Assembly (NCBI GenBank): GCA_000281235.1
Contig: CP003731.1
Coordinates: 199,500 to 223,499 of the forward strand
Source of the DNA: Candidatus Mycoplasma haematolamae str. Purdue
GTDB lineage: Bacteria; Bacillota_I; Bacilli_A; Mycoplasmatales; Mycoplasmoidaceae
DNA length: 24,000 nucleotides
Direction: 5' to 3'
In this document: positions 831 through 24,000 of the stretch, piece after piece
How positions within the stretch are numbered: position 1 is the first letter of the stretch
Layout: every line of letters starts with the position of its first letter
The notes under the pieces: generated by a model
Database searches by the model: none
What the model saw: the letters and a program-made list of their open reading frames with translations, nothing else
What the model was told of the DNA's origin: nothing
Position numbers and translations under genes: made by a program

Positions 831-1307
831 GTGGGCTTTCAAGAACTTAGAGACAGGTTTCTTGATTGCATTAGCTTTTACTGAAAAAGATGGGGCTTTT
901 GAAAAAAATTTCTCTGCATCTTCATACTGCTGTTTGTCCTGTTCGGCTCTTCTTGGGTAGCCTTAATCTCTCTCCCCTTAATCTCTGGGACCTATTTCTG
1001 TACGTGCATCGTCAAGAACATTATGGAAATCTCAGCTAATTGACGCTGAGGACCTCTACTCCCCAAGAGAAGGAATAGACCTTCATCTAACGTAGCTTCT
1101 CAAAGAGAATTAGGGTACTTGCAAGTAGGTCTAAATGGTTGAGGAAGTCTCGGTAAAGTGGCTAAGCAAATAGAGACCTATCCTGTTAGCGCATCTACAA
1201 ATATAGACGACTTTGGAGTAGAACTTTCAGATATAGAGTCACTAAAATCTTTTCTGGAATCAAATCAACTAGAGAAGGGACTGTCTTCTCTTTCAACTAA
1301 TAGTTAA
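831..1307 (+). CDS. hypothetical small membrane protein (about 158 aa, one predicted TM helix FLCIFILLFVLFGSSWVALISLPLI)
   Basis: Frame 0 has no TAA/TAG from GTG 831 to TAA 1305-1307 when TGA (882, 900, 1041, 1047, 1140) is read as Trp. Its stop overlaps the next ATG (TAATG at 1305-1309). No recognisable family; start codon uncertain. Confidence 0.5.
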
Positions 1308-4300
1308 TGCAGATAAATAGCAAGGACTTTCACAGAGAGTTATTCGACTGTCTTCAAACCTTCTTAAACGGAGATAGAAAGAAGAGAGTCTACTTAGTCT
1401 CTGAAGCTACTGTTTACTACCTTATCTCTTTTGGGTACTTCAAGAAGGCAGAGAAGTTTCCTAAGTTACAAGATACATGGTTGCTAGAGTGAAAGACTAA
1501 GTCTTCTGAGGCCAGGAGAGGTTATGCGAAGAGACTAGACGAGTATCTCTATGTTCTTGCTAAGGAAAAAGACTTCAAGGAGCCTTTAATCAACCTCGAC
1601 GCTCTAGAACTAGGAAAGCAGTATAAGACAACACAACTAGAGAAGGAGTTAGAGGTACTTAAGGGCATAGATGTAGATGATCTTGTTCCCTCAGAGGATG
1701 TTGAGTTCCCTGAAATCAAGAAAAGGGCTAAGACCAAGAAGGAGGTAAAGATAGTTGAGGAAGAAGATGAAGGAGAGTTAGAGGAAGTTGTAGTAACCCT
1801 AAAGAAGTCTAAGAAGGAACTTAAGTTAAAGGTTGCCGATTTAGAAGCTGAAGCTGCTCAACAAAAGTTTAAAGAAGAAAAAGAATCAGAAAAAAGTACA
1901 GACAGCTTAGAGGGGAAAGAGAAAGACAGTAAGTCAGAATCAGAAGATTCAAGTTCCAAGGAAGATCAGCAAACAACTAGCGAATCCAAAGAGACAACAG
2001 ATTCTGCAGCAGTTGATGAAAAGCTTAGAGAGATCTCTAGCAAGCTAGATAAGTTAGTTAAGGAGTTTCCTGCAGCTGAACGAAAGAAGGCAGAGGTAGT
2101 TGAAGAGTCTATTGCTCCTGCAGAAAGACAGGCTCAAGAAGTTTTTCAAGATGATGTCTCTGAATCTTCGCTAAGGCTCCAAAAAGAGTTCAAGGAGATC
2201 GAGTCAAAGACAGATGACAAGAGGCAGTTGTCGGCTCACTTTGAGTCACCAGAACAGTTATTTAGCAGAGAGTTTTTAGGAGGTCGACCAGAGAGAGGAA
2301 GAGAATTCTCTAGCGTTCTACTAGATAAGACGAGAGAGAGTGATAAGTCTGTCTTTGACTTCATTCCTTCACCTGAAAAGGACTACACCAGTTGACTGAA
2401 GAATATGCCTAAAGACAAAGCTAGGGCTAAGTTTTTTAATCCTCACTATCCCCTGTCGTCAGTTGTAGAACTAAATAATTCTCATCACTTTTGGGCCTTA
2501 ATCTCCCCCCAATACAACACTGTAGATGCTTTTGCGCTTCAACTTAAGGAGTTTTATAGGTCATTAAGTCCATTCAAACTAGATCAACTAATAGAGAAGC
2601 AAGAGACTACAGGAAGAGTCACTCTCTGAGAAGAATTAGGCAAACAATCTGGTTTAAGTAGCTATGACGGCTCTGAGAATAACTTCAAGAAACTGCTTGA
2701 TGAAAAGATAAAAGAGCTTAAGTCTAAGAACGATGATCTGACAAGATACCTGACTACTCTGAAAGAACAGCTACAGGCGGAAGGAAAGCAGCCAGAGTCG
2801 AATGTGATGTACCTACATTCAATGAAGGAAAAGAGACAGATTCTTACAGAGATAGAACATACATTCAAGGTATTGAGGGAATACTCAACCAAAATAGGAG
2901 AGTTTTCGGCAACCCATCAGGGATTTAAGGCTAATTTCTATATTTCTATCTTTGGGTCTGAAGCTATTCTCTCCCAATATGACTCCTTGATCTGTAGTTC
3001 CCTACTAGACCTAAATGATCAACTGAATGAGATTGTCTACTACCAAAAAGAGATCGAAAGAGTCCTCTTTGAAAGATTGAGTGCGTTACATAAAGCCAGA
3101 AAGGCAGAGATTAAGTTAGAGTTTCTCTCTTCAGATCAACAGTTTTCTAAGTTAGTACTTCGTAAGTTAACAGAGTCTCAACGAGAAGAGAGAAATAGGG
3201 AACTTAAGAGACTGGAGATTCAAGGTTCGTTAGAGCTATCTAAGGCCAATATACAAAAGCAAATAAATCAGGAGAAGGCAAAGCTCTCTAGGTACCTAGA
3301 AAAGCTAAATAAGACTCCCTATATTGCTGACTATGAGGAACAATCTAGAAGCCTTAGAGAGAAAAAAGCAGCCTTCAATCAAAAGGTTGAAGACTACAGG
3401 GAAGAAATTTATGCTCTGAAGCTACAAGTTGAGAGCGCTGAGAGACAGTATTCGTCCTTTATCTCTGACCTAAGAGAGAAGATCTTGGAGTTCCAAAAAG
3501 AAGTTAGCGTTGCTTACTCTGATCATCTTTCTCTGATGAACTCTTCTGTTAATCAAATCTGGACCGATTGAGCCAATCAAGGTATTGACTACATAGAGCG
3601 AATACTCTCTCGAAAGAAGAAGTTAGTGAAGGAGTTTTCAGAGATTGTTGTTCTGAAGTTGAAGACGATGTATGCGGCTCAAGATAAGTTGTTAGAGGAG
3701 TCTAGAAGGAGAAAGCAAGAATGAGAGAGAGTCTACAGAGAGATGGTTGATGAATTTAAGACACTAGGCTATTACCTCGTTAATCCTAAGCCTTCTGAGT
3801 ACTACTACAAGCACTTTCCTAAGCTGGATAAGTCCCACTTTGAGTTAAGTCCTGAGATAAAGAAGCTTCTGTACTATAGACCTTCTCTGAAGTACACAAC
3901 TCCTAAGGTCAATGAATTAATAGGGTTATCGCCCAAGATAGTCAATGACGAAGACTTTCTTGTATTGGACCAAGTTTGAACTACTTTAACACCTATTCAG
4001 GAGCACAAGTTAAGGGAGAAGATAGCCAGAGACAACAAGCTACAAGATCAAAAGAGAATCGATCAATTACTTCAGAAGGCTAAGGACGAGTTGCAGGTTC
4101 GACTAAGTGACAAGCACTATACCTTCAAGACCCTCATTATGGAGAAGAATTTTCCTCAAGAAGCTGATGAAGAGGAAAGATACAGGAGATTGAAGCAATT
4201 TGAGAAGGCACAGTTTCACAATTGGAAGGAGACTCACTTTACCTCCTCGGAGATGAGATACAAGTTCAACAATATGCTCACCAGCCTTGCAAAGAAAACA

Positions 4301-4942
4301 TTTACCTTAAAGGGAGTTGAGACTTGAGGAAATCAAATCAACATCAGCGATAAGGGGAAGATGCCAGACCCTGATCTTGTCGAGAAACTCTCCGAATGGG
4401 ACTACTTCATGAAGACCAAGGAGATACTTACGTTGATAGAGCCTTACTCTGTTTCTGCATTTAAGGTAGATGAAACAGAACTTTATGAGATTGAAGATGA
4501 AGGTTATCTATCTATTCTTGAGGCCCTAGAGGAGAGGGCTGATGCTAGGAGAAAAGATGAAAAACCTCTTAAGAAACCAACTATGCCTGCTCTTGAAGAT
4601 TGGGCAAAGCTAAACCTAAAGAGATATAGGGAGGAAAAGAAGAGGATTGACATCATTGAGGTAAAAGAAGGACTGCTAGCTCTAGAGAAGGAAATTGCTA
4701 CCCTACAGAAGGCTTCTGGTAACTACAAAGAAGCTTGTGATATCGAAATGGCTAGAAGAGAAACTCTATTTGCAGATATGCAGAAGGAACTCAGTGAGTT
4801 GCAGAATTACCTAGAATCTGAAGAAAGGGAATTAAATGAAATCTTTACGAAGTCATCAGACATGATCGAGATGAGTTTTGAAGAATTGGATAAAAAATTA
4901 GAAGAGAGAAGAAAGAGAGCAGAAGAATATAAGAGAAAATAG
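1307..4942 (+). CDS. large (1211 aa) Glu/Lys-rich coiled-coil protein of unknown function, with an acidic Ser/Glu-rich low-complexity segment around 1880-2010
   Basis: Six track fragments (1307, 2405, 2804, 3743, 4091, 4361) share one frame. I walked the gaps codon by codon and found only TGA (1490, 2393, 2627, 3569, 3722, 3977, 4325), no TAA/TAG, until TAG 4940-4942. Heptad-like E/K/L-rich sequence throughout. No TM segment or nucleotide-binding motif seen. Confidence 0.75.
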
Positions 4943-5811: not shown

Positions 5812-6732
5812 TTGGGCAATTTCCTCAGAGCGTTAAAGGTAGTATCCAATCTAGAGAAGATAGATCCTAATTCACCTATAGTTTTTTGCTTTTTACGAAT
5901 AGAAACTACAGGAACTGACTTAAGTAATGATGAGCTCTTAGAAATAGCTTTAGTTAAGTATTCAGCAGGTAAAGAAATAGATAGGTATCACAGTTACGTA
6001 AGGTCTATAAAAGACTTAAGTGATGAAGTTGTCGCCAGTATAGGTCTAGATCCTAAGAAGTGATCGAAGTACGCAAGAGACAAGCACTCAGTCTTAGAAG
6101 AAGTTAAGAATTTTTTCGGCAACAGTGTCTTGGTGGGTCATAATTCCCATCAGTTTGAGCTTCCCTTTCTGAATTCTGAGTATCTAAAACTAGAGAAGCC
6201 AGGACTGGAACTAGCTGTATTAGATACTCTTCTACTATCTAAAGCTTTAGAGGGAGGGAGAGAACTAGAAAACTTTGAACTCTCTTCTCTAGTCAAGAAG
6301 CTAGAGATAAGCGTTTGAAAGCTTAATAATGCTCCTGCAGAGCTCTACCTAAAGAACCTAATCAAACTCTGAAAGGTCTGAGAGTCTCAGTTAAGGTATT
6401 TAGAACTTGATCCTTATTCGTTAGAGTCTCTGAAGATCTTTAATACTTTTTCACTAAAAGGAGAGTTACTTAGGCAATTTAGGAGGACCTTTAAGAAGAT
6501 ACCTATCTTGTTTCTCTACTTTGAATCAGAAGACTTAATCAGAGGGTTACTTTCCTATAGATTCTGTCCCTTACTTACCTTAAAATGAAGGAAATCTATC
6601 CTGAGTAAGAGGGTCTTAAAACTCAGTAAATCTAAAGGAGACTATGATTTGAGGAAAATTCAACCTAAGTTAAGCTTTAAAGACAATTTTGCTATCCTAG
6701 ATATACCTTTTAAGGACCTAAACAACCAATAA
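5812..6732 (+). CDS. PolC-exonuclease-like protein, paralog 1 (306 aa), DEDDh catalytic residues substituted
   Basis: Track fragments 5812 and 6130 share a frame and join through TGA 6061 and 6316, plus later TGAs, to TAA 6730-6732. Strong similarity to the polC exonuclease segment at 9263-9960: KYSAGKEIDRYHSYV vs [25 protein letters not shown] vs [17 protein letters not shown] vs KIWKVWE, LDPY. Motifs read LRIETTG, GHNSHQFELPFL, NNAPAE instead of [25 protein letters not shown]. Confidence 0.75.
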
Positions 6733-6734
6733 AT

Positions 6735-7370
6735 ATGGCTGCAGAGGTAATTACTTCGCTAGAAAACCTTAATCTAAGTCAACCTGTTGTTTTTTGTATT
6801 GTTGACCTAGAAACTACAGGATTAGATCCCTATAAAGATGAGATAATAGAAATCTACATTCTTAAGTATCGGCAGTGAGGTCAGTTGGAGTGTTTTCACA
6901 GTTTTGTTAAGTGTCAAGGAGGGGTTAGTGAGCGCATTACCAAGATAAATGGGATTACCCAAGAGAAGTTAGATAAGGAAGGTAGAGAGCCTGCTGAGGT
7001 ATATGCAGAAGTTAGAGAGTTTTTGGTTGACACGGTTTTGATTGCCCACAACGGCAAGAGGTTTGACTTTCCCTTCCTGGAGGAGTCATTTAAGAAGGCA
7101 GGCATAGAACCTCCTACAAGTCCTCAGTTGGATTCAATGTTGTTGGCTAAGTATCTCATGCCTGGACTTAAATCCTATGCATTAGAAGCTCTATTGGAAG
7201 AGAACAACATTACCTACGAACGAAGAGAGCTTCACTCAGCTAGATATGATGCTTCTTGTCTAGCTAAGCTGTGAAAAGACTGAGAACAGAGGCTTATCAA
7301 TACAGGCTTAGATCCTTTTCTTGCAGAAGACCTTAAAAATTTGAACGAACACCTAGAAGAAAACTTTTAG
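6735..7370 (+). CDS. PolC/DnaQ-type DEDDh 3'-5' exonuclease, paralog 2 (211 aa), catalytic motifs intact
   Basis: ATG 6735, in-frame TGA at 6876, 7272, 7281, TAG 7368-7370. Exo I VDLETTG, Exo II AHNGKRFDFPFL, Exo III HSARYDA. C-terminal LAKLW*KDW*EQRLINTGLDPF matches the PolC linker. Confidence 0.8.
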
Positions 7371-8134: not shown

Positions 8135-11100
8135 TTGGAGAAGCAGATCTTAGAGGAGAGATTTCGTCTACTTCTAGTTGAGGAGTTAAAGCTTTTTGAC
8201 CAGAATGAATATACCAACTTAAGAAAGAAGGCAGAGGTTAGTGGTAGATTTTCTAAGTGTTGAGATAGGTTTGACGTCTTTATTAGATTCTTTGACGAGC
8301 CTCTTTTTAGAGAGCTAAATAGGTGCTTTAACTACTACTCCAAGGTTTGCTATATCCACGTAAGGCTTGACTATCTCTATAACACTTCTTCCCTTTACAA
8401 GCTACTCCTTAGTTGATTTGATCAATTCCTAACTGAAGAGAGGGAAGATTTCAGAATACCTCGACTTAAGGAGGGAAATATCATCTTTGACTTTCCTCAG
8501 CTGATCATTAGGGTAGATAGTGATGTTCAGGAGAGGTTTATCTCTCCTCATCTAGAAAATCTTAGGTCTTTTTTAGAGTACATCTTTAGTTATCACAGGA
8601 TTAGTCTCTCAGTCAAAAAAGTTGAAAGTATACCTATTAGCGTTAGTCAGAGTGCAGGAGTTGCACAGGCTCTTTTCGACTCTTCAGAGTCAACTGTCTC
8701 CTCTATGAGGGAGGAGCTTAAGTCGATTATTGCTACTCAGACGAATGAACACAAGGGGGTGTTTCGTCTCTACTGTATAGAAGAGGAAGAAGGTTACGGA
8801 GCTAAAAGGTCTAAAAGTTATCGAATAGGTTTCACTAACTTCTCCGATCACTACTACCTCTTATTGGGCTCCAAGGTTAAAGAGGACAAAAAGAAGGAGA
8901 TTTTAGATGTTCTGAGGTTAGAAGAGTGATATGAGATTGAATACACCCTCGACTCTGCTGAGGGAAGAAGGAGCAGCCGAGTGACTATGAAGTGTGACGG
9001 TTGGCTTATGTCTTGCACACCTACAGAACCTCCTGAAGAGTATCGATTAGTTGATGATTCTCCTAAAAAGGCTTTTCCCCTGAATGTCTACACCAAATAC
9101 TCTAGTTTTGACGGTCTCTTCAGCTCCGATGAGTGAGCTATCCTGGCATCCAAATTAGGTCACAGTGTCCTTGCTTTAACGGATTTCAATAACGTTCACG
9201 TCTTTCCTGAAGCCGAGAAGAGCACCAAAAAAAATGGGTTAAAGCCTCTGTACGGTGCTGAGGTGGAGGTAATTTCTGAAGAGCTACAGATATGTACTAA
9301 CCTAGACTCCCTAGAGGAGAGATTTAGAGATCCTGTTATCTATTCGATATTTGACCTAGAGACTACAGGACTTCACCCTCTATTTGATGAGATTATTGAG
9401 ATTTATGTAATTAAGTATTCAGGAGGAAGGGAGATAGATAGCTATCACAGCTATCTGAAATGTGACAAGGAGTTAACTACTCAGATAGTTGACCTAACCA
9501 ACATAACTGCCGAGAAGCTAGACATAATGGGCAGGCCCAAAAGAGAAGTTCTCTCAGAAGTTAGAGAATTCATGACCGGCACTGTCTTGATGGCCCACAA
9601 TGGCTTGGATTTCGACCTTCCTTTCCTGAATGTTCAAATGAAGCTAGCGGGTCTAGAACCTTTAGATCAACCCTTACTGGATACCATTTTGCTAGCTAAG
9701 GCCCTTGATGGAGAAAAGAAGTCTAAGTCGTTTACCTTACATTCAGTTGCCAAAAAACTGTCAATCCCTGTAGCTGAGCGAGAGTTACACTCTGCTGAGT
9801 ACGACACTGGCTGTTTACTCAAGATCTGAAAGGTCTGAGAGACTCTTCTTATAGAGAAGGGACTAGATCCCTATGTCTATGAGAATCTAGAGGGAATAAA
9901 TAACTACTTTAGTCAAAAAAGCCTAATTAGGAATTATTTCGGAAGTAACGTAATCCTATTTGCAAAGAATCAGCAGGGCATCTACGATCTATTCGAGCTC
10001 ATTTCGGCGGCCCACACAGAGTGTTTTGTTGAGCGACCTAGGCTGACCTGACAGCTAATTGACTCTAAGAGAAAGAACCTAATAGTCCTATCATCACCGA
10101 CTAACAGTGAGTTAATTAAAGCTGCTTTTAGAGATGATTTCAGCGCATTTGAACGCGAAGGAAGGAAGCTGGACTATGTTTCTATCCCCCCTCCCTCTAT
10201 GTTCCTTCATGAGATGAATAGATTTGACCTCTCTTTGGAGCAAATACAGGGAATCATCAGACAGTTGTACGAATGAGGGAATGATTGCAAGTTTAAGTTA
10301 GTTGCCAACTATTGTCTAAAGTTTCAGTACTACAGAGAGGTAGAGCAGTACAAGGTATTAGTTCACGCGAAGATCATTGGAGGCAAGAGACACCCTCTTC
10401 ACTCAACTAAGTTCAGCAATGATGTTCTTCCTGATTACTCCCTAAGACTTACCAAAAACTTCATAGAAGAATTCAGTTTCTTAGGCCTAAATAAGAAAGA
10501 AATAGATTCACTCTTCTTTAGATACAGGGAGGAGATAGTGAAGTCTATTTCCTCAGATATCCAGATCAATAAACCTAATCTTTCTCTGCCTGTAATTGGG
10601 GATGCATTGGCCCAAATAAATCAGCATGTTGACAGAAAGTTAACAGAGAAATACGGACCTAGACCTCACTCCTATCTGAGAAGTACCCTAGATAGAGAGT
10701 TAAAGGGAATTAAAGAAAATGGTTTTGAATCCGTCTTTTGATGTGCCCATCTCCTCGTTGAGAGGTCCAAGAAGGAAGGCTATTTGGTCGGTTCTAGGGG
10801 CTCTGTAGGCTCCTCTTTTTTAGCTCACATGCTAGATATTAGTGAGGTAAACCCTCTACCCCCTCACTATTATTGCAGCTGTTGCTCCCACTTTGTGCTG
10901 GTAGAGAGCTTCAAGGAGTCAGGTTTTGACCTCGAGCCTAAACGTTGTCCTAACTGTTCTATCCCTCTATTAACAGATGGTCAGACAATCCCCTTTGAGA
11001 CTTTTATGGGACTCGAAGGTAACAAAGTGCCGGATATCGACCTTAACTTCTCTGGTCAGTATCAACAGGAGGCCCAACAGTTTTTGAGAGAACTCTTTGG

Positions 11101-12478
11101 AACAGAACACACCTTTCGAGCAGGAACTGTCTCTGCTATTGCTGAAAAGACAGCATATGCATTGGCCCAAAATTATGTGACTGACAATAAGGTCCAATAT
11201 AACAAGGGAAAGCTTCACTGACTCTCCTGGAGACTAGCTGATGTAAAACGTACTACAGGACAGCATCCAGGAGGGATTATCGTAATCCCAAAGGGTCAGT
11301 CAATTTATACCTACACCCCTGTTAACTATCCTGCAAATGACACTGAAAGTGAGTGATTGACTACTCACTTTGACAAGGATGCTCTCAAAGACTCCCTCTT
11401 TAAATTCGACATATTGGGTCAAGATGATCCAACTATCTTAGCCTTACTTTCTCGATTTACAGGAGTAAGTCTTGACAAGATCAGCCACAATGACAAGAAA
11501 ATCCTAAGAATGTTTAGTGATATCTCAGTCCTAGAGATATCTCCCAAAGATCAGGAGCTCATAGGGGAGTCAATAGGCACAATAGGTCTACCTGAGTTCG
11601 GCACTGAAAAGACACGAGAGATTCTTAGGGCCTGCAGAGAGAAGATAAGGCACTTCTCTGATTTGATACGCATTTCAGGGATAAGCCACGGAAAGAATGT
11701 CTGAAAAAACAACATAGAGAAGCTCATCTCTGATCACAAACACGACCTTCATGAGGTAATTACCTGCAGAGATGACATTATGAATTACCTATTAGACAAA
11801 AAAATCAGCATTCAACAGTCTTTCAAAATTACTGAGAGTGTTCGAAGGGGAGGAGGAATACCCCAAGAAGATATAAGAATGCTCAAAGAGGCAAAGGTAC
11901 CGGCTTGGTATATAGAGTGTGCAAACAAAATTACGTATATCTTTCCTAAAGCTCATGCAACTGCTTATGTCTTGATGTGTTGAAAAATTGCCTTCTTTAA
12001 GCTCTACTATCCTGTTGAGTTTTATGCAGCCTACCTGACGATTACCAATAAGCACTTTGATATAGAGACACTGTTAACTAATGACTTGGTTACCATCAGA
12101 GACAAGTACTCTGAGTGCAAGCGAATCATTAAGAGCAGAATCAACAAGGAGAACATAGAAAAGACAAAGTATCTCGTGATTATCTATGAAGTTGCCCTAG
12201 AGATGATCTCCAGGGGAATTAAGTTCAAGATGGTTGACATCAACTCATCCCTAGCTTCTACCTTTAAGCCTGATCGAATGGCTAGAACTATCCAACTACC
12301 TTTTTCTTGTATCCCCGGATTAGGGATCATCACAGCAGCACAACTGGAAGAAGAGCGAGAAGAAAAGGGAGATTATGTCTCCAGAGAAGACTTAGAGTCT
12401 AGGGTGAAGCTGAATGTAACTCTGCTGAAATCCTTTGAAAAATTAGGGATAATCAGCCCTAGATCTTCTAAGAGTTAG
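8135..12478 (+). CDS. polC: DNA polymerase III alpha subunit, PolC type (about 1447 aa)
   Basis: Seven track fragments (8705, 9263, 10538, 10784, 11357, 11780, 12086) share one frame and join through [16 protein letters not shown]; DEDDh exonuclease FDLETTG / [12 protein letters not shown] / HSAEYD; [13 protein letters not shown]; Cys cluster CSCCSH..CPNC; [10 protein letters not shown]; [14 protein letters not shown]; [12 protein letters not shown]; GLPEFGT; [15 protein letters not shown] 8135 is the first canonical start after TAA 8099. TAG stop 12476-12478. Confidence 0.93.
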
Positions 12479-16308: not shown

Positions 16309-18771
16309 ATGTCTGATCTGGTAGCAACAGAACTTTTTTCTAATTCTTTACCTCTATTAATCTCCAGAAACTTAGTTGTTTTTCCCAACTCAAAGAACAT
16401 CATCGAGATAGGTAGAGAATGCTCACTAGCTTCTATCAAGTGTTCTATTTCTGACTACAAGGGAGAAATAGTGGTAGTTGCTCAAAAGGATTATGATGTT
16501 GACTTTCCTCTACCTTCTGATCTATATAAGGTAGGTACTCTTTGCAAGGTAACTGTCCTTAAGCAAAACAAAGATGAATCTTTAACAGTAGAGGTAGAAG
16601 GATTTCAAAGGGTCAAGGTATCTAGCGTCAAATTAGTTAAGTTAGCAGGTCAAGAAGAGTTAGGTCAAATGTGAATTTCTGAATACGAACTACTTAAGGA
16701 AAAAAACACTTCACTTGTAAAGAACAGGGCAGATATAGACCAACTGTTTAAGTACTTTGAAGAACTATTTGAGGTAGAGGGAGAGGACTATACAGAACTA
16801 AAGAAACTCTTTTCTACAGATGAAGCAGGAAAAGGTTCGGACCTCGACTCTTGTTCTGTTCTAATTGACAAACTGTGCAGCATTTGACCTCAAAACGAAA
16901 AAGATGGTGTAGATGTCAAGCAAAAGTGATTAGAGGAGTTGAACTTAACAAAGAGAATCTCCCTAATGCTTGACTATGAATATCTATCTGAAGCTGAAAA
17001 AGATGAGATTAACAGCTCTATTACCAAGAAGGTCAACAAAAACATATCTAAACAACAAAGAGAGTTCTACCTAAGAGAAAGGATTAAGGTAATCAAGGAA
17101 GAGTTAGGAGAGAGTGTTACTCGAGATGGAGAACTTCAGAAATTTAAGGAATGACTAAAGAAGGAAAAAGCTCCTGAGCACATAAGAAATAGGGTTCAAG
17201 AAGAGGTAAAGAAGCTGGAGTATTCTGGTTCTATTTCTACCAATGAATCTCTGATCATTCACAACTACCTAAATTGGATCATCTCTCTTCCCTGATCTAA
17301 GAGCTCAAAAGACCAAAAGAATGTCTGAAAGGTCAAGGAAGAACTAAATAAGAATCACTTTGGACTTGAGAAGGTTAAGGAGAGAATCTTAGAACATGTC
17401 TCTGTACAGAAGAGAACTAAGAATCCTCAGGGAACAATCATCTGTCTAGTAGGTCCCCCTGGAGTAGGTAAAACCTCTTTGGCTCAATCAATTGCTAAAG
17501 GTCTGAATAAGGTATGCATAAAGATCTCCCTAGGAGGTATGAGCGATGAAGCTGAGATTAGAGGACACAGACGTACCTATGTAGGGTCTTTGCCAGGAAA
17601 GATCATTCAGTCTCTAAAGAAAGCTAAGGTCAATAATCCTGTAATTCTCCTGGACGAGATAGATAAGGTAGCTAGTCACAGACACGGAGATCCCTTCTCA
17701 GCTTTACTGGAGGTTCTCGATCCTAAGCAAAATAAGCAATTCTCTGACAACTATATAGAGGAAGAAGTAGACCTGTCCAAGATCATGTTTATAGCTACAG
17801 CTAACTATGAGGAAGAGATACCTGATGCTCTGTCAGACAGACTAGAGATGATTCGTCTAAGCTCCTACACAGAAAAGGAAAAGTTAGAGATAGCTAGAAA
17901 TAGCTTGGTAGCTGAAGTTCTTGCAGAGAATGGACTTAAGCCAGAGGAGTTAGTTTTTGATGAAGATTCACTTAGATACATCATTCAGAGATACACTAGA
18001 GAACCTGGAGTAAGAGCATTAAAACAGGTTATAGCTAGGATAGCTAGAAAGTTTGTGATGAAGCAAGAGGAAAATAAGGATTTAACTGCAGAAGTCTTAA
18101 ATGAGGAAAAGATACGAGGCTATCTAGGTAAGGAAGACTTTGATGTAACCATTAAAGACACAACACCTGTACCTGGAAGAGTGAATGGTATGGCCTACAC
18201 AGCTTCAGGAGGTGACCTTCTTCCTGTGGAGGTCAATATCTTCCCTGCAGGAAAAGGAGAACTTTCTAGAACAGGGAACCTAAAAGAGACAATAGTTGAG
18301 TCTGTAGAGGTAGCTAAGAACTATATAAGAAAGAATTCAGAGGCTTTCAACCTAAAAGACATTAAGTGAACAGACTTAGATATTCACCTTCACGTACCTC
18401 AAGGGGGAGTGCCCAAAGATGGACCCTCTGCAGGAGTAACAATAGCTACAGCTTTACTCTCTGAGTTACTTCAAATCTCTATTCCTTCCGAAGTAGCTAT
18501 GACAGGAGAAATTACCACTAAAGGGATAGTAGAGCCTATAGGAGGACTGAAAGAAAAGATCCTTTCGGCTGTTCGAGGAGGAGTAAATACTGTTTTCTTC
18601 CCTAAGAAGAATGAAAAGGACCTAGAGGATATTCCTAAAGATGTGTTGGAAAAGATAACTCTGAAGCCTGTAGAGTACTACACAGAGATCTTTGATGAAC
18701 TCTTTGCTTCCAAGTTGATCATCTCTTCTGCAGGGACTAACCCTAAAGTGGCTAACAATCAGTATTCCTAA
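16309..18771 (+). CDS. lon: ATP-dependent Lon protease (820 aa)
   Basis: Four track fragments (16309, 16939, 17479, 18409) share one frame and join through TGA. Walker A GPPGVGKTSLAQSIA, Walker B VILLDEIDK, YLNWIISLPW*S, catalytic PKDGPSAGVTIATAL and MTGEITTKGIVEPIGGLKEK. Confidence 0.95.
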
Positions 18772-18857: not shown

Positions 18858-19430
18858 GTGTTAGGTTTCAAAGAAGTTGCAATAGCTGTTGCAGCTACTG
18901 GAGCAGCAGGTAGTACTGTTGCGACTGCAGTTGCTTTGAATTCCAATCAGGATGTAGGTGTTTCAACTAAATCTGTTACCAACCCCAAATCGGAAGAATC
19001 TTTACTTTGAAAAAAGGAAGAAAAGCCAAGTTCACCTAAAGAATCTGATAAACGCATAACTACTTTCAAGGTTTCTAAGGAAATGGGCTATGGCACTTGA
19101 ACCAGAGAACTTACCTGTAAAGCAGATAAAGATAGATATCCAACCTTACTTCTTTGAAATCATGATAGGCAAGAAGTAATTCTTTTCTGTAATAGTTCCT
19201 TTCGAGAAACCAAGGACTTTCAACTAAACGAATCAGGTGTTAATGTGACTTGCAAAAAATCTGAAGGCTCAGGAGATTATTCATCAGAGTTCAATTGCGA
19301 AGTAGTTAGTCCCAAGATTTGGACTGTAAGATCAGATTATAGAAATGGTTTAGCTTTGATCTTTAAGTTAAAAAAGAGCAGATATCTTACTCATATCGGA
19401 GAGGACATAATCCATGATGATTGGCTATAA
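18858..19430 (+). CDS. family member Z: small membrane-anchored or secreted protein with a Gly/Ala-rich hydrophobic leader and a 4-Cys domain (190 aa)
   Basis: GTG 18858 is the first start after TAA 18849. MLGFKEVAIAVAATGAAGSTVATAVALNSN.. Three in-frame TGAs (19008, 19098, 19155) link it to track ORF 19245-19430. The leader is near-colinear with that of the gene at 23750 (MIFKELAIGVLGLGAVGGTVTTVTLSNSS). Confidence 0.7.
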
Positions 19431-19549
19431 ACGACTGTTAATTTAGATCCCTTACACTACAAAAACCTTTAATTTCAGCCAAGAAGAAGACCTAACAGTA
19501 AAGCAGGATACTCGCTCTCTTAGAGTCTCCTTAGTAAGAGGAGATTGAG

Positions 19550-19962
19550 GGAGAATGTAAGCCATATTCTGTTTCTACCTAATAGCAGTAGAAGTGAGTA
19601 ATTAATCTAACCTAGTTACCTAGATTTTTAAGTTCTGTTGGAATTCCAAAACTTAAAGTCCCTTACCATTATTTAGGTTTCTTGCTTGAGGGGTTTACCG
19701 CGTTTCACTCTCTTTATTTCTAAAGAGCTCGTCTCTGTGGCACCTTAAAGAAAATAGCATCATATAAGGAGGTTAGTCCTTACTTAGAAGTATTTTCTGC
19801 CATCAACTAGTTTCCTAGCCGTTGAGTTTTATTTTTTATGTACTCACACAAACACTATAGTCATCTCAGACTATGCAAGTATGGACTTTCCTCTACCTTA
19901 GAAAGACCTTTTTCTAGAAGAATCTATTCCTTCTAAAGCAGCTACTCACTCTCTCCCTCAAA
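19550..19962 (-). ncRNA. rnpB: RNase P RNA, type B (Bacillus/Mollicutes type); ends approximate (+/-15 nt)
   Basis: The minus strand reads GUAGAGGAAAGUCCAUACUUGCAUAGUCUGAGAUGACUAUAGUGUUUGUG.., ..GGUGCCACAGAGACGAGCUCUUUAGAAAUAAAGAGAGUGAAACGCGGUAAACCCCUCAAGCAAGAAACCUAAAUAAUGGUAAGGGA.., ..ACAGAAUAUGGCUUACA. It is nearly colinear with B. subtilis RNase P RNA as I recall it. A P1 helix is possible between UGAGGGAGA (5') and UCUCCCUCA (3'). Confidence 0.9.
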
Positions 19963-20129
19963 CATCACTAAGGGATGTAAAGAGTATCCCAATTTAATTT
20001 AAGTAACTGCTAAGAAAAGAAGCCTAAAAGGACTCCTTGTTTGTATGTGTAAAAATTAGATTTTAAATCTCTGCAGAAATACTGGCAAATAATCTCGATT
20101 TAAGTCGTTCAATCCTCTAACTTAGCATC

Positions 20130-20464
20130 ATGTTTAGCTTCTTTAAGTCCCTTTCTTGTGTAGTTGCTGGAGGAACTACACTCGGAGGAGGTGCTTACGG
20201 CACCTACAGAGCTCTTAATGTTGGGGGGGGCACTCTACAGAAAGAATAAAAGTGACTAATTATTCTGCTTCTGGTTTAACTGACCATAAACCTCATAGCA
20301 CTGGATTAGCGGGTTGCACTCGTTGCAATGATGAAGAAGACCATGAAATGCAGTGTGAGCTCAATAGAGATGGAGCTAGACTTGAGTGTGGCTACGTTTG
20401 TCCCTTCACCAATGCTGAGAACAATATCAATGCTGTGTATGCGAGACAAAGAGGTTCTTCATAA
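20130..20464 (+). CDS. family member A: leader ORF (20130-20249) and 6-Cys body (frame of 20231, to TAA 20462-20464) separated by a frameshift at a G8 tract; candidate phase-variable gene, OFF as sequenced
   Basis: MFSFFKSLSCVVAGGTTLGGGAYGTYRALNVGGG then TAA after 6 more codons. The body ..HSTERIKVTNYSASGLTDHKPHSTGLAGCTRCNDEEDHEMQCELNRDGARLECGYVCPF.. is open in the next frame, starting right after the tract. Confidence 0.6.
20223..20230 (+). repeat. homopolymeric G8 tract at codon 32 of family member A
   Basis: ttGGGGGGGGcac counted directly in the sequence. Confidence 0.95.
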
Positions 20465-20831
20465 TGTCTCTTTCTGTAGGTTTTTTAAAGGTACTTGTCC
20501 CTACTGCTCTAGTGGGCTCTGCAGTAGGCTTCGGGATCTACACAATTAACGGTTCTGGGGGGGGCAAATAGTTAAAGCGAAACGGTATCAGCGTCAACAA
20601 GGTAGTACAGACTCTTTTCAAGTAGACGGCGAAGTTACGATAGTTGTTCCTAGATATTATGTTCAGTATGAAAGTGAATATCTAGGAAAGAAAACAATCA
20701 CTTTCGAAGAGAGTACTGGCAAGACCTGTTGAAATTCTCGAATTAATGAAGAAACTGGAAAGGATTATGTCTTCAATTTGTCTGTAGGTACGAATTGGAC
20801 GGACTTTACTAAACTTCCTCGCTGTCAATAA
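20464..20831 (+). CDS. family member B: leader ORF (20464-20571) and body (frame of 20565, to TAA 20829-20831) separated by a frameshift at a G8 tract; candidate phase-variable gene, OFF as sequenced
   Basis: The ATG overlaps the stop of member A (TAATG 20462-20466). MSLSVGFLKVLVPTALVGSAVGFGIYTINGSGGGK* is followed in the next frame by QIVKAKRYQRQQGSTDSFQVDGEVTIVVPRYYVQYESEYLGKKTITFEESTGKTCW*NSRINEETGKDYVFNLSVGTNWTDFTKLPRCQ*. Confidence 0.6.
20557..20564 (+). repeat. homopolymeric G8 tract at codon 32 of family member B
   Basis: tctGGGGGGGGcaa counted directly in the sequence. Confidence 0.95.
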
Positions 20832-20842
20832 GGATACAATCT

Positions 20843-20859
20843 AGCCTCAAAGAGAGGCT
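20843..20859 (+). terminator. weak hairpin after family member B (AGCCTC-aaaga-GAGGCT), no U-tail
   Basis: 6-bp perfect stem 12 nt after the TAA of member B, followed by an A8 run (20866-20873) rather than a T-run. Confidence 0.2.
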
Positions 20860-20939
20860 GCATCGAAAAAAAAGAGAGGGCGAGTTAGAGAAACCTAACA
20901 CATTCACTTAGCTTGTCAGTTCTAGGTAATCGGTTGTTG

Positions 20940-20947
20940 CCCCCCCC
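20940..20947 (+). repeat. homopolymeric C8 tract in the 5' leader/intergenic region of family member C
   Basis: ttgCCCCCCCCagc counted directly. Lies 51 nt upstream of the TTG start at 20998, with an in-frame TAG (20959) between them. Confidence 0.95.
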
Positions 20948-20997
20948 AGCCACTTCTCTAGAAAGCGTGAACCGGCTCCACATGACTCTCATTAAGC

Positions 20998-22155
20998 TTG
21001 CTTCACCTAAAGACCAAATTAGCCCTTGTTGTTTTAGGTCTAGGAGGGGCCAATGGAGTTTCGATGCTGGTCTTCAAAGACGATCTTTTCCAGAACCTAA
21101 GAGGTACTGAATTAAAAGAACTATTTAGCAGTCTAGGTCCTTTTTCAGGCAATAATTCGTTAGATCTCAGGCAAACTACCAGAGAAAACTTAGGAACCTT
21201 AGGTGTCTCTAATCTCTCTTCTCCTGTTTTATCTCTTTATGCAGATGGTCAGTTAAATATAGGAAGTTTAGGCAATGCTTGAGGTTTTAAAGAACAAATA
21301 ACTAAATTTCAGGAGAGTAATTCCTCTCTAGAGGCTTCAAAACTTAAAGATGAAAAAGCGAGAAAGATTATTGGCCAGTTGTCAAAGTCAGATATCCAAC
21401 ACTTCTTAAAGGCTCTAGAGAAGATAGAGAGGTTTGCCAGAGGAGAAAACAACGTAGAAGCTTTAGATCAACAGGAGAGAAGGGTAGTTCTCAAGTACTA
21501 CAAGGTCTGATGTGAACTTAAGCAGATAGGTTTAGATATCACTGCTATCTTTTCTAAAGAGGGAGAAGTAGCTAAGCTGCAACAGAGAGATTCCTTTGAA
21601 GATTATGAGAGTCTCAAGAAAAAATTAAGTAAACTGGGCTGGGAGTGACCTAGTCTTAAGGTACTTGGTCTTCACAATAGATTTGTAGATGCTTCTAGAG
21701 ATTGAGGGTCTGTCAGGGACTGAGACTCCAATCAGTGAAGGGAATATTATGTTCGCGACTCCCATAATTGGGGATATGACCTCGAGTGAAGCAAGAATCC
21801 CTGGAAGGATTTTTTTGTAGATGAAGCTGAATGGAAGGTCTTTTGGAGGGAGAGATCTAAACTCAAAGAGAGGCTCTGAAGGGATTGGCACAACTCCAAA
21901 TCGGTGGTGTGATGAGACTATGGTTGCTTCAAGCCTGTTAATGGGGTTGAATTTTTTGAAGGTTGCTACGAGACTACCCAAAAGGAGTTAGCAGAGGTAA
22001 TTGATGGGGCCAATGCAAATATTGGTCTTCAAGTAGGGATGAAGACATTACTGTGAATGGGTTATCCCCTTCAAGGTAAGAGGGCAATAATTGCCTTAAA
22101 TGGAAGAAATGCTGCAACCTGAATAGAGTCTGGACTAGTTAACTTGAAGTCTTAG
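20998..22155 (+). CDS. family member C: 385-aa protein with Gly-rich hydrophobic leader, central helical region and Trp-rich C-terminal domain
   Basis: TTG 20998 MLHLKTKLALVVLGLGGANGVSMLVFKDDL.. Track ORF 20998-21282 extends through 13 in-frame TGAs with no TAA/TAG until TAG 22153-22155. Paralogous to member D (LDQQERRVVLKYYKVW vs LSLEERQAVMKVYEAW; EWSKNPWKDFFVDEAEWKVFWRERSKLK vs NWESNPWGKFFESENLWKSYWEERDFLK). Confidence 0.7.
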
Positions 22156-22158
22156 AGT

Positions 22159-23217
22159 CTGGTCTTTACTGCGAAGGCCCAGATAGGTGCTGCCCTAGTC
22201 GGTCTGGGGGGGGTAAACGCAGTTGCAGTCACTGCCTTTAAATCGCCCTTAAAGGACCTATTTTTTTCTGAGCCTCCTTCAGATCTAACTACCAGTTCTT
22301 ACCTAGAAGGAAAAAGACACACCTTAAGTCTCTCGACTTCATCTAGAGAAGGTTTAAAAGAAACGAAGATTGTTAGTGCTCTAGATAGCCCTAAATTAGC
22401 TCTAAAACAGGAAGTGCCTCCTGTTCAGTTAGGTGACTTAGCTGCTCCACTAGAAAACAGGGAGACTTTAAAGGCGCAAGTAGGTTCTTTTAAAGGAGCA
22501 TTAGACAGATCAGAAGCTATCTCTTCTATAGAGGAAGAAAGAGACGAAAAAGTGAAGAAGGCACAAGAGGTGCTTGAACAGTACAAGTCGCATTTTGACG
22601 AAGCTGTTAAGAAGGTTAAGGTCTATCTCTCTAAAGAACCTAACTCCAAATTAACCTCACTATCCCTAGAGGAGAGGCAGGCAGTAATGAAGGTTTATGA
22701 AGCTTGAGCATCTATCAAGACAGCAATTGCAACAGCTAACTCTAAATTGAAGAAATTAGGCGCTGATGTTCAAGAGGAGCAATCTTCTTGAAAAACAGAC
22801 TCTGAAGTTAGAAGTATGCTCAACAATATTCTGTGGACAACACAGGGAATTAAGTTTTTAGGGAATGTTCAGAAGTCAGGAGCTAATCGATCAAACAATT
22901 GGCACTACAGCATGAATTGAGAATCTAATCCTTGGGGTAAGTTCTTTGAGAGTGAAAATCTGTGAAAAAGTTACTGAGAAGAAAGAGATTTCCTTAAAAA
23001 TGAACTCTATTCTTTGTTTTCATTAAAAGAACAATGAAAGGATGGTAAGTGCAGCAAGGTGACGGGGGTTTCTTCAGAACAGAGAGAATTGTGTTTCGCC
23101 AGGGCAAGAGATACAAGTATCGGCATTTATTCTGAGGCAAATATCAAGATAGAATTGCATGTAGCTAAACAGGTTTTGTCTTGAATGGGCAAATTAGACG
23201 AGACTAAAGCTAAATAA
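22159..23217 (+). CDS. family member D: paralog of C with an in-frame G8 tract in the leader; no canonical start codon (CTG 22159 or ATA 22183 are the candidates)
   Basis: Same frame as member C and opens right after its TAG. SLVFTAKAQIGAALVGLGGVNAVAVTAFKSPLKDLFF.. includes track ORF 22414-22707, then continues through TGAs to TAA 23215-23217. Confidence 0.6.
22206..22213 (+). repeat. homopolymeric G8 tract encoding the GLGG motif of member D's leader (in frame as sequenced)
   Basis: ggtctGGGGGGGGtaaac counted directly. The homologous GLGG in member C is encoded by the interrupted ggt cta gga ggg. Confidence 0.95.
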
Positions 23218-23227
23218 AAATAGAGTC

Positions 23228-23250
23228 AGTAGGCCCTAAAGGGGTCTACT
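23228..23250 (+). terminator. imperfect hairpin between members D and E (AGTAGGCCC-taaa-GGGGTCTACT)
   Basis: 3 bp + 1-nt bulge + 6 bp (one G-U). Starts 11 nt after the TAA of D and ends 8 nt before the ATG of E. Only a short T-run follows. Confidence 0.25.
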
Positions 23251-23257
23251 CTTTGAA

Positions 23258-23749
23258 ATGACTAATGCAAGTGTGGGTCTCTGAATCCTTAAGTTAATGG
23301 CTGGAGGTGCTGCCTTTGGAGGAGGGTCTGCAGCTTTAGGATATTTCTCTGCCCTATTAGTAGATTTGAAGGAAGCTCCTCAAACTGATAAGGGATATCC
23401 TGATCCTGATTGAGGTAGAGAGGTTAACTACAAGATAAGAGTTTCTACTAAGGAAAAGAAAAATAAGGAAGCCTCTTTGGTTTGTGCAGGTCGATCTTGA
23501 TACTTTGCGAATCTTAAGGCAGAAGTAGATAAAGAAGGAGAGAGATTGAGACTACTCTGTGACTACTCCAAGAAGAAGACCAACAAATTAATTGAAGAAA
23601 TGAACCCCAAAAAACAAATTTTAACCTGCTCTATCAGGGATAGAGAACAAGGATTCAAAGAAGTCTTCTGCTTTTTACCTGAAAAAGAACTTACCATGGA
23701 TTCTTCCACTTTAAGGGAGAAGAGGCACCTTTTGATCTCCTGATCCTAG
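23258..23749 (+). CDS. family member E: 163-aa protein with Gly-rich leader and a 4-Cys domain
   Basis: ATG 23258 MTNASVGLW*ILKLMAGGAAFGGGSAALGYFSALLVDLKEAP.. In-frame TGAs join it to track ORF 23546-23743; TAG 23747-23749. Cys spacing 24/22/13 vs 23/20/14 in member Z. Confidence 0.7.
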
Positions 23750-24000
23750 ATGATTTTTAAGGAACTAGCAATAGGGGTCTTGGGCCTGGGAGCTGTTGGA
23801 GGCACCGTTACTACTGTAACCTTATCTAACTCAAGTACAGATGGTTCTGTGAGCACTCAGAAGAGGGTAGTTCAGGATCCTGAGTACTTCGGAAAGCCTA
23901 TTAACTATAAGATGACAGTCAATAAGGGCATAGGAGGAGAACAAAACCAGTATTTGAAATGCTCTGGCCTAGCTAATCACTTCGCCTTCTTTAGGGTTCA
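23750..24000 (+). CDS. family member F (3' end outside the window)
   Basis: The ATG directly abuts the TAG of member E (TAGATG). MIFKELAIGVLGLGAVGGTVTTVTLSNSSTDGSVSTQKRVVQDPEYFGKPINYKMTVNKGIGGEQNQYLKCSGLANHFAFFRV.. The leader matches member Z and the body matches member E (EVNYKIRVSTKEK..SLVCAGRSWYFANL). Confidence 0.7.
   Translation, partial: MIFKELAIGVLGLGAVGGTVTTVTLSNSSTDGSVSTQKRVVQDPEYFGKPINYKMTVNKGIGGEQNQYLKCSGLANHFAFFRV

What the first reader, a model, noticed from the sequence alone, without database searches (positions are those of the whole stretch)
18858..24000. Accessory cluster of at least 7 paralogous small proteins with Gly/Ala-rich N-terminal hydrophobic leaders, arranged as coupled pairs
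Right after lon the coding style changes. Seven ORFs (Z 18858, A 20130, B 20464, C 20998, D 22159, E 23258, F 23750) each begin with a 20-30-aa Gly/Ala/Val-rich hydrophobic segment. Z reads MLGFKEVAIAVAATGAAGSTVATAVAL and F reads MIFKELAIGVLGLGAVGGTVTTVTL. A reads ..VVAGGTTLGGGAYGTY and E reads ..LMAGGAAFGGGSAALGYF. C reads ..LALVVLGLGGANGVSMLVF and D reads ..GAALVGLGGVNAVAVTAF. Divergent hydrophilic bodies follow. There is no lipobox. The genes are paired with coupled junctions: A/B TAATG, C/D stop plus 3 nt in the same frame, E/F TAGATG. None matches a family I recognise. The leaders resemble signal anchors. The combination of tandem paralogy, rapid body divergence and homopolymer switches (separate findings) is what is expected of a variable surface-protein system in a wall-less bacterium. 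The cluster continues beyond the window.
Basis: partly seen in the sequence, partly recalled or inferred. Interest (0 to 1): 0.8.

Follow-up and report, generated by a model that had tools for sequence, protein, structure and literature searches.

The report
Hemoplasma exported-protein paralogs with poly-G switches
This is a cluster of species-specific, probably exported "hypothetical" proteins from the published genome of the alpaca blood parasite 'Candidatus Mycoplasma haemolamae'; such paralog families are already known, but several genes here carry 8-base G or C runs placed where a one-base slip would switch them on or off.

Summary
- RNase P RNA lies between Z and A.
- A and B are each cut short after 39 and 35 aa by a G8 run that starts at nt 94 of the ORF. 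One more G restores 111- and 122-aa proteins.
- D has CTG exactly where its paralogs have their start codon.

All four G/C runs of 7 or more in the 24 kb are exactly 8 long and lie within 2 kb of the cluster (0.09 expected). My best reading is that these are Sec-exported or membrane-anchored variable proteins, several under slipped-strand ON/OFF control. That makes this a new member of a known kind. Surface exposure and tract-length variation remain untested.

The parts
18858..19430 (+). [not shown]
   Evidence: Table-4 ORF. Exact match to MHLP_01065. Its leader resembles F's (z=10.6).
20130..20249 (+). A, leader ORF as sequenced (39 aa plus stop). Type-2 leader (..VVAGGTTLGGGAYGTY), cut short after the G8 tract.
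   Evidence: The 39-aa product is listed only in MetaClust and is not annotated in GenBank.
20223..20230 (+). G8 tract in A, nt 94-101 of the ORF. G8 is OFF; G9 or G6 would be ON.
20231..20464 (+). A body in the G9 frame (77 codons plus a TAA that overlaps B's ATG). GenBank annotates only 20252-20464 as the leaderless 70-aa MHLP_01070. The body has 5 Cys.
   Evidence: It is the only open frame after the tract: 77 codons against 5 and 8. The codon-usage frame test favours it. MHLP_01070 identity.
20464..20571 (+). B, leader ORF as sequenced (35 aa plus stop). Unannotated.
20557..20564 (+). G8 tract in B, also nt 94-101 of its ORF. G8 is OFF; G9 or G6 would be ON.
   Evidence: Its context TCTGGGGGGGG[C/T]AAA is shared with D (family D1).
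20565..20831 (+). B body in the G9 frame (88 codons plus TAA). It has no usable internal start, so it is absent from public annotation.
   Evidence: The frame is open for 88 codons against 1 and 2 in the other frames. Frame test. Neither the G9 nor the G6 product is in any public protein set.
20940..20947 (+). C8 tract 51 nt upstream of C's TTG start, in the promoter or 5'UTR region. An A8 run lies at 20866-20873.
   Evidence: Any role is inferred, not tested.
20998..22155 (+). C = MHLP_01075, 385 aa, TTG start. C-type member of the 12-member species-specific family. The GLGG motif is encoded without a homopolymer.
   Evidence: 100% identity. Family. The AF2 model is helical from about residue 110 to 378.
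22159..23217 (+). D, 352 codons from CTG 22159. D-type member. GenBank calls only 22414-23217 (267 aa, MHLP_01080), without the leader.
   Evidence: CTG aligns with the start Met of the D-type paralogs MHLP_03355, 03370 and 03385. The region 22159-22413 has an in-frame coding signature. P0011 = MHLP_01080.
22206..22213 (+). G8 tract inside D's leader, encoding the family-invariant G-L-G-G. In frame (ON) at G8.
   Evidence: GLGG invariance.
23258..23749 (+). E = MHLP_01085 (163 aa in RefSeq, 150 aa in GenBank). Type-2 leader, 4-Cys body, no homopolymer.
23750..24000 (+). F, partial (83 aa, runs off the window). Z-like leader and E-like body motif (DPxxxGxxINYKxxV...LxCxG). Its ATG abuts E's TAG.
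   Evidence: No database protein matches it.

Best explanation
The locus holds hemoplasma-specific 'paralogous gene family' proteins. They are made with an N-terminal Gly/Ala-rich Sec-type leader, so the hydrophilic, Cys-pair-containing bodies end up outside the wall-less cell, either secreted or held by the uncleaved leader. There they face the host's blood.

There are at least three leader types: Z/F(/B), A/E and C/D. The genes sit in two-gene modules: A-B and E-F are type 2 followed by type 1, and C-D is a tandem duplicate.

Superimposed on this are four 8-base G/C runs that behave as contingency switches.
- In A and B the run begins at nt 94, just after the leader. Slipped-strand mispairing between G8 (OFF, as sequenced) and G9 (ON) would decide whether the body is translated. 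Because A's true stop overlaps B's ATG, A's state could also influence B.
- In D the run encodes the invariant GLGG of the leader and is ON at G8. However, D depends on a weak CTG start 4 nt after C's stop, so it may rely on re-initiation.
- The C8 run lies 51 nt upstream of C and could tune transcription.

Shown here: the organism, the ORFs, the leaders, the tract positions and their enrichment, the frame logic, and family membership and species restriction. Inferred: export, surface exposure, actual length switching, and a role in immune evasion.
For: -
- The leaders have 1-2 K/R, then 11-23 uncharged residues. The hydrophobic maximum is always N-terminal and there is no second hydrophobic segment.
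- Cys is enriched to 2.3-6.5% in the bodies of Z, A, B and E, against 0.98% in housekeeping proteins. Z and E have 4 Cys each, B and D have 2 each, and two Cys are invariant across the C/D family. This fits disulfide-bonded extracellular domains.
- No homology to any cytoplasmic or housekeeping family was found.
- The C/D family has 12 members, all in this species. Most lie in a second array, MHLP_03345-03420.
- All four G/C runs of 7 or more in the 24 kb are exactly 8 long and lie within 20223-22213. The Markov-1 expectation is 0.09.
- The A and B tracts sit at the identical ORF position. After each tract only the +1G frame stays open: 77 and 88 codons, against 1-8 codons in the other frames. 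That frame also wins the codon-usage frame test.
- A's TAATG coupling with B exists only in that frame.
- Published context: PGFs with positively selected codons and proposed immune evasion (PMC3958358); PGF members mostly carry a helix or signal peptide, and phase variation is proposed for M. haemofelis (PMC3196708).
Against: - There is no evidence that any tract varies in length. Only one assembly is available, no reads, and no ON-version proteins exist in public sets.
- Three of the seven genes are defective as sequenced (A, B and D's start) and F is unannotated. That equally fits decay.
- The leaders are only weakly hydrophobic (dG +1.0 to +5.7; A and E fall below the KD 1.6 threshold). 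No dedicated predictor (SignalP, DeepTMHMM) could be run.
- All four tracts read exactly 8, and both OFF genes need exactly +1. This could reflect systematic homopolymer under-calling.
- No plus-strand promoter consensus was found near the C8 run.
Confidence: 0.55

Rival explanations
1. Gene decay. The cluster is a graveyard of redundant paralogs in a reduced genome. The G runs are simply mutational hot spots that have already inactivated A and B. D has lost its start codon, and F may be broken. There is no switching function.
For: - A and B are truncated, D has only CTG, and F is unannotated.
- GenBank annotates only leaderless fragments: MHLP_01070 and MHLP_01080.
- The literature says it is unknown whether the PGFs are contracting or expanding.
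Against: - After each frameshift the original frame is still fully open for 77 and 88 codons. With about 5% stop codons per random codon this is roughly p~0.02 each (my estimate). That frame also keeps its coding signature.
- The A/B stop-start overlap is intact.
- Both tracts are a single reversible step from ON.
- Four tracts of identical length in 2 kb are far above chance.
- D's 85-codon leader region is still open and coding-like.
Confidence: 0.2
2. Assembly artefact. The tracts are real, but their lengths are mis-called in the deposited assembly. On this reading A and B are actually intact (G9) and constitutively expressed, and the 'switch' logic is an illusion of homopolymer sequencing error.
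For: - Both OFF genes need exactly the same +1 correction.
- All four tracts are reported as exactly 8.
- The organism is uncultivable and was sequenced from infected blood. The sequencing platform could not be checked because the genome announcement is not held.
Against: - D is in frame at the same reported length, so a uniform under-call would break D instead.
- Mis-calling does not explain why such tracts exist only here, at matching ORF positions, in a 39% G+C genome where GGG makes up only 13% of Gly codons in housekeeping genes (32 of 254).
- A mixed population is itself what a phase-variable tract would produce.
Confidence: 0.15
3. The proteins are small housekeeping membrane proteins, or precursors of another leader class (type IV prepilin-like, or double-glycine bacteriocin-like), rather than variable exported antigens.
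For: - Z starts MLG-FKE, which is superficially prepilin-like.
- The A and B leaders end in GGG.
Against: - The prepilin signature requires Glu at +5 after G|F. Z has Glu at +3 and F lacks the Gly.
- Double-glycine leaders are not hydrophobic.
- No peptidase or ABC-C39 partner lies in the window.
- The C/D family is restricted to one species and diverges fast, unlike housekeeping components.
Confidence: 0.05

Closest known systems
Hemoplasma paralogous gene families (PGFs) described by Santos 2011, Guimaraes 2011/2014 and do Nascimento 2012/2014
   Same: Same organism group, and in fact the same genome. The proteins are hypothetical, species-specific and tandemly arrayed. They are short, usually carry one N-terminal helix or signal peptide, and are proposed as an antigen pool.
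   Different: The papers treat the PGFs statistically, by BLASTclust counts and selection tests. In the papers I could read, I found no description of the leader types, the two-gene modules, or poly-G/C tracts at the 5' end of the genes. For M. haemofelis the papers invoke intergenic VNTRs instead.
Neisseria pilC (poly-G run in the signal-peptide coding region) and opa genes (CTCTT repeats in the leader coding region). This comparison rests on my own knowledge.
   Same: The logic is the same. A slippery repeat sits inside or at the end of the leader-peptide coding region of several paralogous surface-protein genes, so each gene switches ON/OFF independently at the level of translation.
   Different: There is no sequence or fold relationship. 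Switching is not demonstrated here. The host is a Mollicute with no outer membrane.
Mycoplasma phase-variable surface proteins that use homopolymers: M. hyorhinis Vlp (poly-A in the promoter), M. hominis Vaa and M. fermentans P78 (poly-A in the 5' coding region). This comparison rests on my own knowledge.
   Same: These are wall-less bacteria in which a homopolymer length change toggles expression of surface-protein paralogs. A promoter tract would be the analogue of the C8 run before C.
   Different: Those proteins are lipoproteins with a lipobox Cys, and often have tandem-repeat bodies. Here there is no lipobox and there are no tandem repeats. The tracts here are G/C rather than A/T.
Treponema pallidum tpr genes with upstream poly-G tracts, and Campylobacter/Helicobacter poly-G contingency genes. 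This comparison rests on my own knowledge.
   Same: G/C homopolymers of about 8 or more are concentrated in or upstream of variable surface gene families in a host-restricted pathogen.
   Different: The protein families are unrelated. Tract-length heterogeneity has been demonstrated experimentally in those organisms but not here.

Membership tests
Hemoplasma PGF (operational definition: BLASTclust, at least 30% identity over at least 70% length within the genome) | At least one other protein in the same genome meets the identity and coverage thresholds. | tested here: met
   C against MHLP_03415: 40% identity, 94% coverage. An HMM finds 12 members, all from this genome. D belongs by HMM (E=9e-16) but is only 28% identical to C.
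Hemoplasma PGF (the same definition), applied to Z, A, B, E and F | A paralog at 30% identity and 70% coverage or better. | tested here: inconclusive
   No pair inside the window reaches the threshold. E and F retrieve nothing but themselves, or nothing at all, from 5.8 billion proteins at E<=10. The genome DNA could not be fetched, so a sensitive genome-restricted search was impossible.
Simple-sequence contingency locus (slipped-strand phase variation) | A homopolymer long enough to slip (G/C of about 7-8 or more) and over-represented relative to composition. | tested here: met
   Four runs of exactly 8, against 0.09 expected per 24 kb. There are no runs of 7 and no G runs of 6.
Simple-sequence contingency locus | The tract is placed so that a length change of +/-1 toggles expression (5' coding region or promoter). 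| tested here: met
   A and B: nt 94-101 of the ORF, with only the +1G frame open downstream. D: nt 48-55, in frame. The C8 run 51 nt upstream of C is suggestive only.
Simple-sequence contingency locus | Observed tract-length polymorphism within a population or between strains. | not testable with these tools
   Only one assembly is available, with no reads and no second strain. ON-form proteins are absent from public sets.
Mycoplasma variable surface lipoproteins (Vlp, Vsa, Vsp, pMGA type) | A lipoprotein signal peptide ending in a lipobox [LVI][ASTVI][GAS]C. | tested here: not met
   No Cys occurs in the leaders, except A's Cys10 in the context K-S-L-S-C. That residue is too close to the N-terminus and has the wrong -3/-2 residues.
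Mycoplasma variable surface lipoproteins | Tandem-repeat, size-variable body. | tested here: not met
   TRF finds only one weak 11-nt repeat of 2.8 copies.
Sec (type I) signal peptide | A positively charged n-region, a hydrophobic h-region of 7-15 or more residues, and small residues at -3/-1. | tested here: inconclusive
   The n-region K/R and the uncharged h-region are present in all seven, and AxA-like sites exist (for example AVA|L in Z and AVA|V in D). Hydrophobicity is marginal (dG19 +1.0 to +5.7). These are heuristics only, and no SignalP was run.
Type IV prepilin-like leader | A G(-1)|F/M(+1) cleavage site with Glu at +5. | tested here: not met
   Z has G3-F4 but Glu at +3. F has no Gly before its Phe. 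The other leaders lack the motif.

The most novel reading that the evidence does not exclude
The Gly-rich leaders and the poly-G tracts may be two sides of one device. In 'Ca. M. haemolamae', GGG-GGG-GG runs encoding the conserved glycine motifs of export leaders (GLGG in the C/D family, GGG at the end of the A and B leaders) would act as independent translational ON/OFF switches across many PGF genes. Translationally coupled gene pairs would add combinatorial states. If so, this would be the first concrete molecular mechanism for the long-postulated antigenic variation and cyclic bacteraemia of hemotrophic mycoplasmas. A weak hint from the other array: two paralogs (MHLP_03380 and MHLP_03345) have annotated N-termini that fall out of register exactly at the GLGG motif.
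Probability: 0.35. Interest if true: 0.6.

Novelty: new member of a known kind. Interest (0 to 1): 0.38.

Why it matters
Hemoplasmas cannot be cultured, cause chronic relapsing anaemia, and devote up to about 70% of their genes to unexplained paralog families. So far the literature offers only a general idea (an "antigen pool", intergenic VNTRs).

A defined, checkable switch would make that hypothesis directly testable by amplicon sequencing of serial blood samples. The switch proposed here is a G8/G9 run at a fixed position in the leader-coding region of specific genes.

It also flags annotation errors. B is missing from the annotation, and A and D are annotated without their leaders. That would mislead any antigen or vaccine screen built on the deposited proteome.

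Tried and rejected
1. Table 11 ORF calling fragments every gene, so I switched to table 4.
2. Fetching genome context failed. The look-up of encoding contigs has no record for MHLP_01075 or MHLP_03415. Both genome-contig scans found nothing. The first probably failed because Trp was back-translated as TGG. The second used Trp-free patterns and also failed, so the genome appears not to be in that collection. As a result I could not do a genome-wide tract census or a leader-HMM search.
3. Searching 5.8 billion proteins with E and with F returned only E itself, or nothing. F's full length therefore stays unknown.
4. Exact look-ups of the G9 and G6 products of A and B, and of full-length D, found none.
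6. The profile search against PDB sequences, and Pfam on all 12 family members, gave only noise, such as 14-3-3 at E=0.04.
7. Multiple alignment of Z, E, F, B and A was not informative. My by-eye alignment of the four Cys of Z and E is not supported by BLAST.
8. There is no recent gene conversion: the Z and F leaders are only loosely similar at the DNA level, with scattered matches and no long identical stretch.
9. The prepilin-like, double-glycine and lipoprotein leader ideas were rejected on motif grounds.
10. The genome announcement (PMC3486355) is not held, so the sequencing platform is unknown.

Full report
**Identity of the sequence**

Under the bacterial code every long gene in the window is chopped up; lon falls into four pieces. 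Read with TGA = Trp (table 4), the window becomes a normal gene series:
- an ABC ATPase
- a 1211-aa charged protein
- rpsD
- two DEDDh exonuclease paralogs
- polC
- recU
- rsmH
- mraZ
- rplU
- an aldo-keto reductase
- rpsI
- lon (16309-18771)

**Checking the observation**

All seven ORFs and the quoted leader peptides are present at the stated coordinates.
- Each protein has exactly one hydrophobic segment, at the N-terminus. It is preceded by 1-2 Lys/Arg and is 11-23 residues long without charged or strongly polar residues. G+A makes up 20-43% of the first 30 residues, against 0-23% in the window's other proteins.
- There is no lipobox.
- The junctions TAATG (A/B), TAG+3 nt (C/D) and TAGATG (E/F) are real.
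- Pfam and NCBIfam find nothing for any of the seven.

1. RNase P RNA (class B, 219 bits) lies at 19553-19914 on the minus strand, between Z and A. This accounts for the 700-bp non-coding gap. A good promoter match for it sits at 20088-20060.
2. As sequenced, A ends after 39 aa and B after 35 aa.
3. D has no ATG, GTG or TTG before 22414.
4. Paralogy of all seven is not supported.

The shuffle tests gave:

| Pair | Region | z |
|---|---|---|
| C~D | bodies | 30 |
| C~D | leaders | 8.6 |
| E~F | bodies | 7.9 |
| A~E | leaders | 4.2 |
| C~F | leaders | 3.9 |

Everything else is at noise level. The BLAST E-value for the E~F body motif is 3e-5.

The picture is of three leader types: Z/F and perhaps B; A/E; and C/D. 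These are arranged as two 'type 2 then type 1' modules (A-B and E-F), a tandem duplicate (C-D) and a lone Z. F combines a Z-type leader with an E-type body motif.

**The C/D family**

A profile of C plus MHLP_03415, searched against 1.84 billion representative proteins, found only 12 proteins at E<1e-3. All 12 come from this one genome: MHLP_00385, 01075, 01080, 03345, 03355, 03370, 03380, 03385, 03390, 03395, 03415 and 03420. This is therefore a species-restricted family whose main array lies elsewhere in the genome. C-D is an outlying pair.

The alignment shows:
- two subtypes, C-type and D-type
- an invariant G-L-G-G in the leader (where the leader is present)
- a low-complexity Ser-rich linker
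- a conserved Trp-rich C-terminal half (SNPW..FF, W.MG)
- two invariant Cys

AlphaFold with this 12-sequence alignment gives a disordered first ~108 residues. A moderately confident helical domain follows, with one beta-hairpin flanked by the two Cys (pLDDT 62.9, pTM 0.63). Foldseek finds no PDB relative. Profile-against-PDB and Pfam searches on all members give only noise.

D-type paralogs begin M-[VFI]-L-T-x-K-x-Q-x-G-A-A-L-V-G-L-G-G. D's CTG at 22159 lines up exactly with their start codon. The stretch 22159-22413 also scores as coding in frame. The real D therefore includes the leader, and the 267-aa GenBank model is an artefact of the missing canonical start.

**The homopolymers**

The window has exactly four G/C runs of 7 or more. 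All four are exactly 8 long, and all lie between 20223 and 22213. A first-order model expects 0.09.
- In A and B the run occupies nt 94-101 of the ORF in both genes.
- With G8 the ribosome hits a stop after 5 codons in A and 1 codon in B.
- With one extra G (or two fewer) the frame stays open for 77 codons in A and 88 in B. The remaining frame closes after 8 and 2 codons.
- That ON frame is also the one favoured by a codon-usage frame test.
- In A the ON frame ends in the TAA that overlaps B's ATG.
- In D the run encodes the invariant GLGG and is in frame. In C the same motif is spelled GGTCTAGGAGGGGCC, with no run.
- B and D share the context TCTGGGGGGGG[C/T]AAA.
- The C8 run is 51 nt upstream of C's TTG.

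GGG is a minority Gly codon in the housekeeping genes here (32 of 254). These runs are therefore not a by-product of codon usage.

**Mechanism proposed**

The leaders look like Sec-type export signals. They are only marginally hydrophobic (Hessa sum +1.0 to +5.7 kcal/mol over 19 residues). That is more typical of signal-peptide h-regions than of stable membrane anchors. From my own knowledge, the pneumoniae-group Mollicutes lack an identified signal peptidase I, so such leaders might stay attached. This remains open.

The bodies are hydrophilic and, in the small proteins, Cys-rich (2.3-6.5% against 0.98% in housekeeping proteins). Z and E have four Cys each, and B and D two each. This suits disulfide-bonded proteins facing plasma.

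I infer that these are exported or surface-tethered, fast-evolving proteins of the published PGF class. I also infer that slipped-strand mispairing at the G runs switches A, B and D independently, with the C8 run possibly modulating C. This works like pilC and opa in Neisseria, or the poly-A switches of Vaa and P78 in other mycoplasmas (my own knowledge). The proteins are not members of those families: the lipobox and tandem-repeat features of mycoplasma variable lipoproteins were tested and are not met.

**Rivals**

- *Decay.* Three of the seven genes are defective and F is unannotated. Against decay: the long open, coding-like ON frames and the intact coupling.
- *Homopolymer mis-calling in the assembly.* Both OFF genes need the same +1 correction. 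Against it: D is in frame at the same reported length, and mis-calling cannot explain why the tracts exist at matching positions.

Neither rival can be excluded without reads or a second strain. I could not retrieve the genome DNA or the genome announcement.

**What is known and what is new**

The PGFs of hemoplasmas are published. This genome has 64 families covering 454 CDSs, with positively selected codons in 13 of the 20 families tested and immune evasion proposed. Members carry helices or signal peptides, and for M. haemofelis intergenic VNTRs are invoked for phase variation.

In the literature I could reach, I found no description of poly-G/C tracts in the leader-coding regions, of the leader types, or of the coupled modules. 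The finding is therefore a new, plausible example of a known kind of system, inside an already catalogued class of genes, and it comes with concrete annotation corrections.

**Verdict**

Interest is moderate (0.38). Interest would rise to about 0.6 if tract-length switching were shown genome-wide.

Noticed in passing
window 19553-19914 (-): RNase P RNA, class B (Rfam RF00011, 219 bits, full length) sits between Z and A. It has a sigma-70-like promoter match (TTGCCA-17-TAAAAT) at 20088-20060. It explains the 700-bp 'non-coding' gap inside the claimed cluster.
   Followed up: yes
whole window: The genetic code is table 4 (TGA = Trp: 48 TGA against 13 TGG in the housekeeping genes). Any table-11 ORF call fragments every gene. 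Back-translation searches that spell Trp as TGG probably fail on this genome for the same reason.
   Followed up: yes
window 5812-6732 and 6735-7370 (+), just upstream of polC (8135-12478): Two tandem DEDDh/RNase T-type exonuclease paralogs (Pfam RNase_T 4e-28; DEDDh_C 3e-5). Their motifs closely resemble the exonuclease domain inside the adjacent PolC (FCIVDLETTGLDP.. against [11 protein letters not shown]..). They look like a local duplication of the proofreading domain.
   Followed up: partly
window 1307-4942 (+): A 1211-aa, extremely Lys/Glu-rich, apparently coiled-coil protein. It is preceded by a 158-aa protein with a strong N-proximal hydrophobic segment (831-1307), whose stop overlaps the next ATG (TAATG-type junction at 1307). 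No homology search was run on the 1211-aa protein. The 158-aa protein has no Pfam match.
   Followed up: no
window 20252-20464, 20464-20831 and 22159-22413: Annotation errors in the public record. MHLP_01070 is only the leaderless tail of A. B (122 aa if G9) is not annotated at all. MHLP_01080 (D) is called from an internal GTG and lacks its 85-codon N-terminal region. E has three different starts in public sets (150, 158 and 163 aa).
   Followed up: yes
paralogs MHLP_03380 (P0010) and MHLP_03345 (P0012), in another locus of the same genome: Their annotated N-termini lose register with the family alignment exactly at the invariant GLGG motif (...SSRPRGANV.. and MGGATSS..). A frameshifting G run at that site would produce this. 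The DNA could not be fetched to check.
   Followed up: partly
UniRef names of MHLP_03420 (P0005) and MHLP_00385 (P0013): UniRef labels these two C/D-family members 'Lipoprotein', although their leaders contain no Cys. The label looks like an automatic mis-annotation.
   Followed up: no
window 20866-20873: An A8 run lies in the B-C intergenic region, 74 nt upstream of the C8 run. It is one of only two A/T runs of 8 or more in the window; the other is at 9227 inside polC.
   Followed up: no
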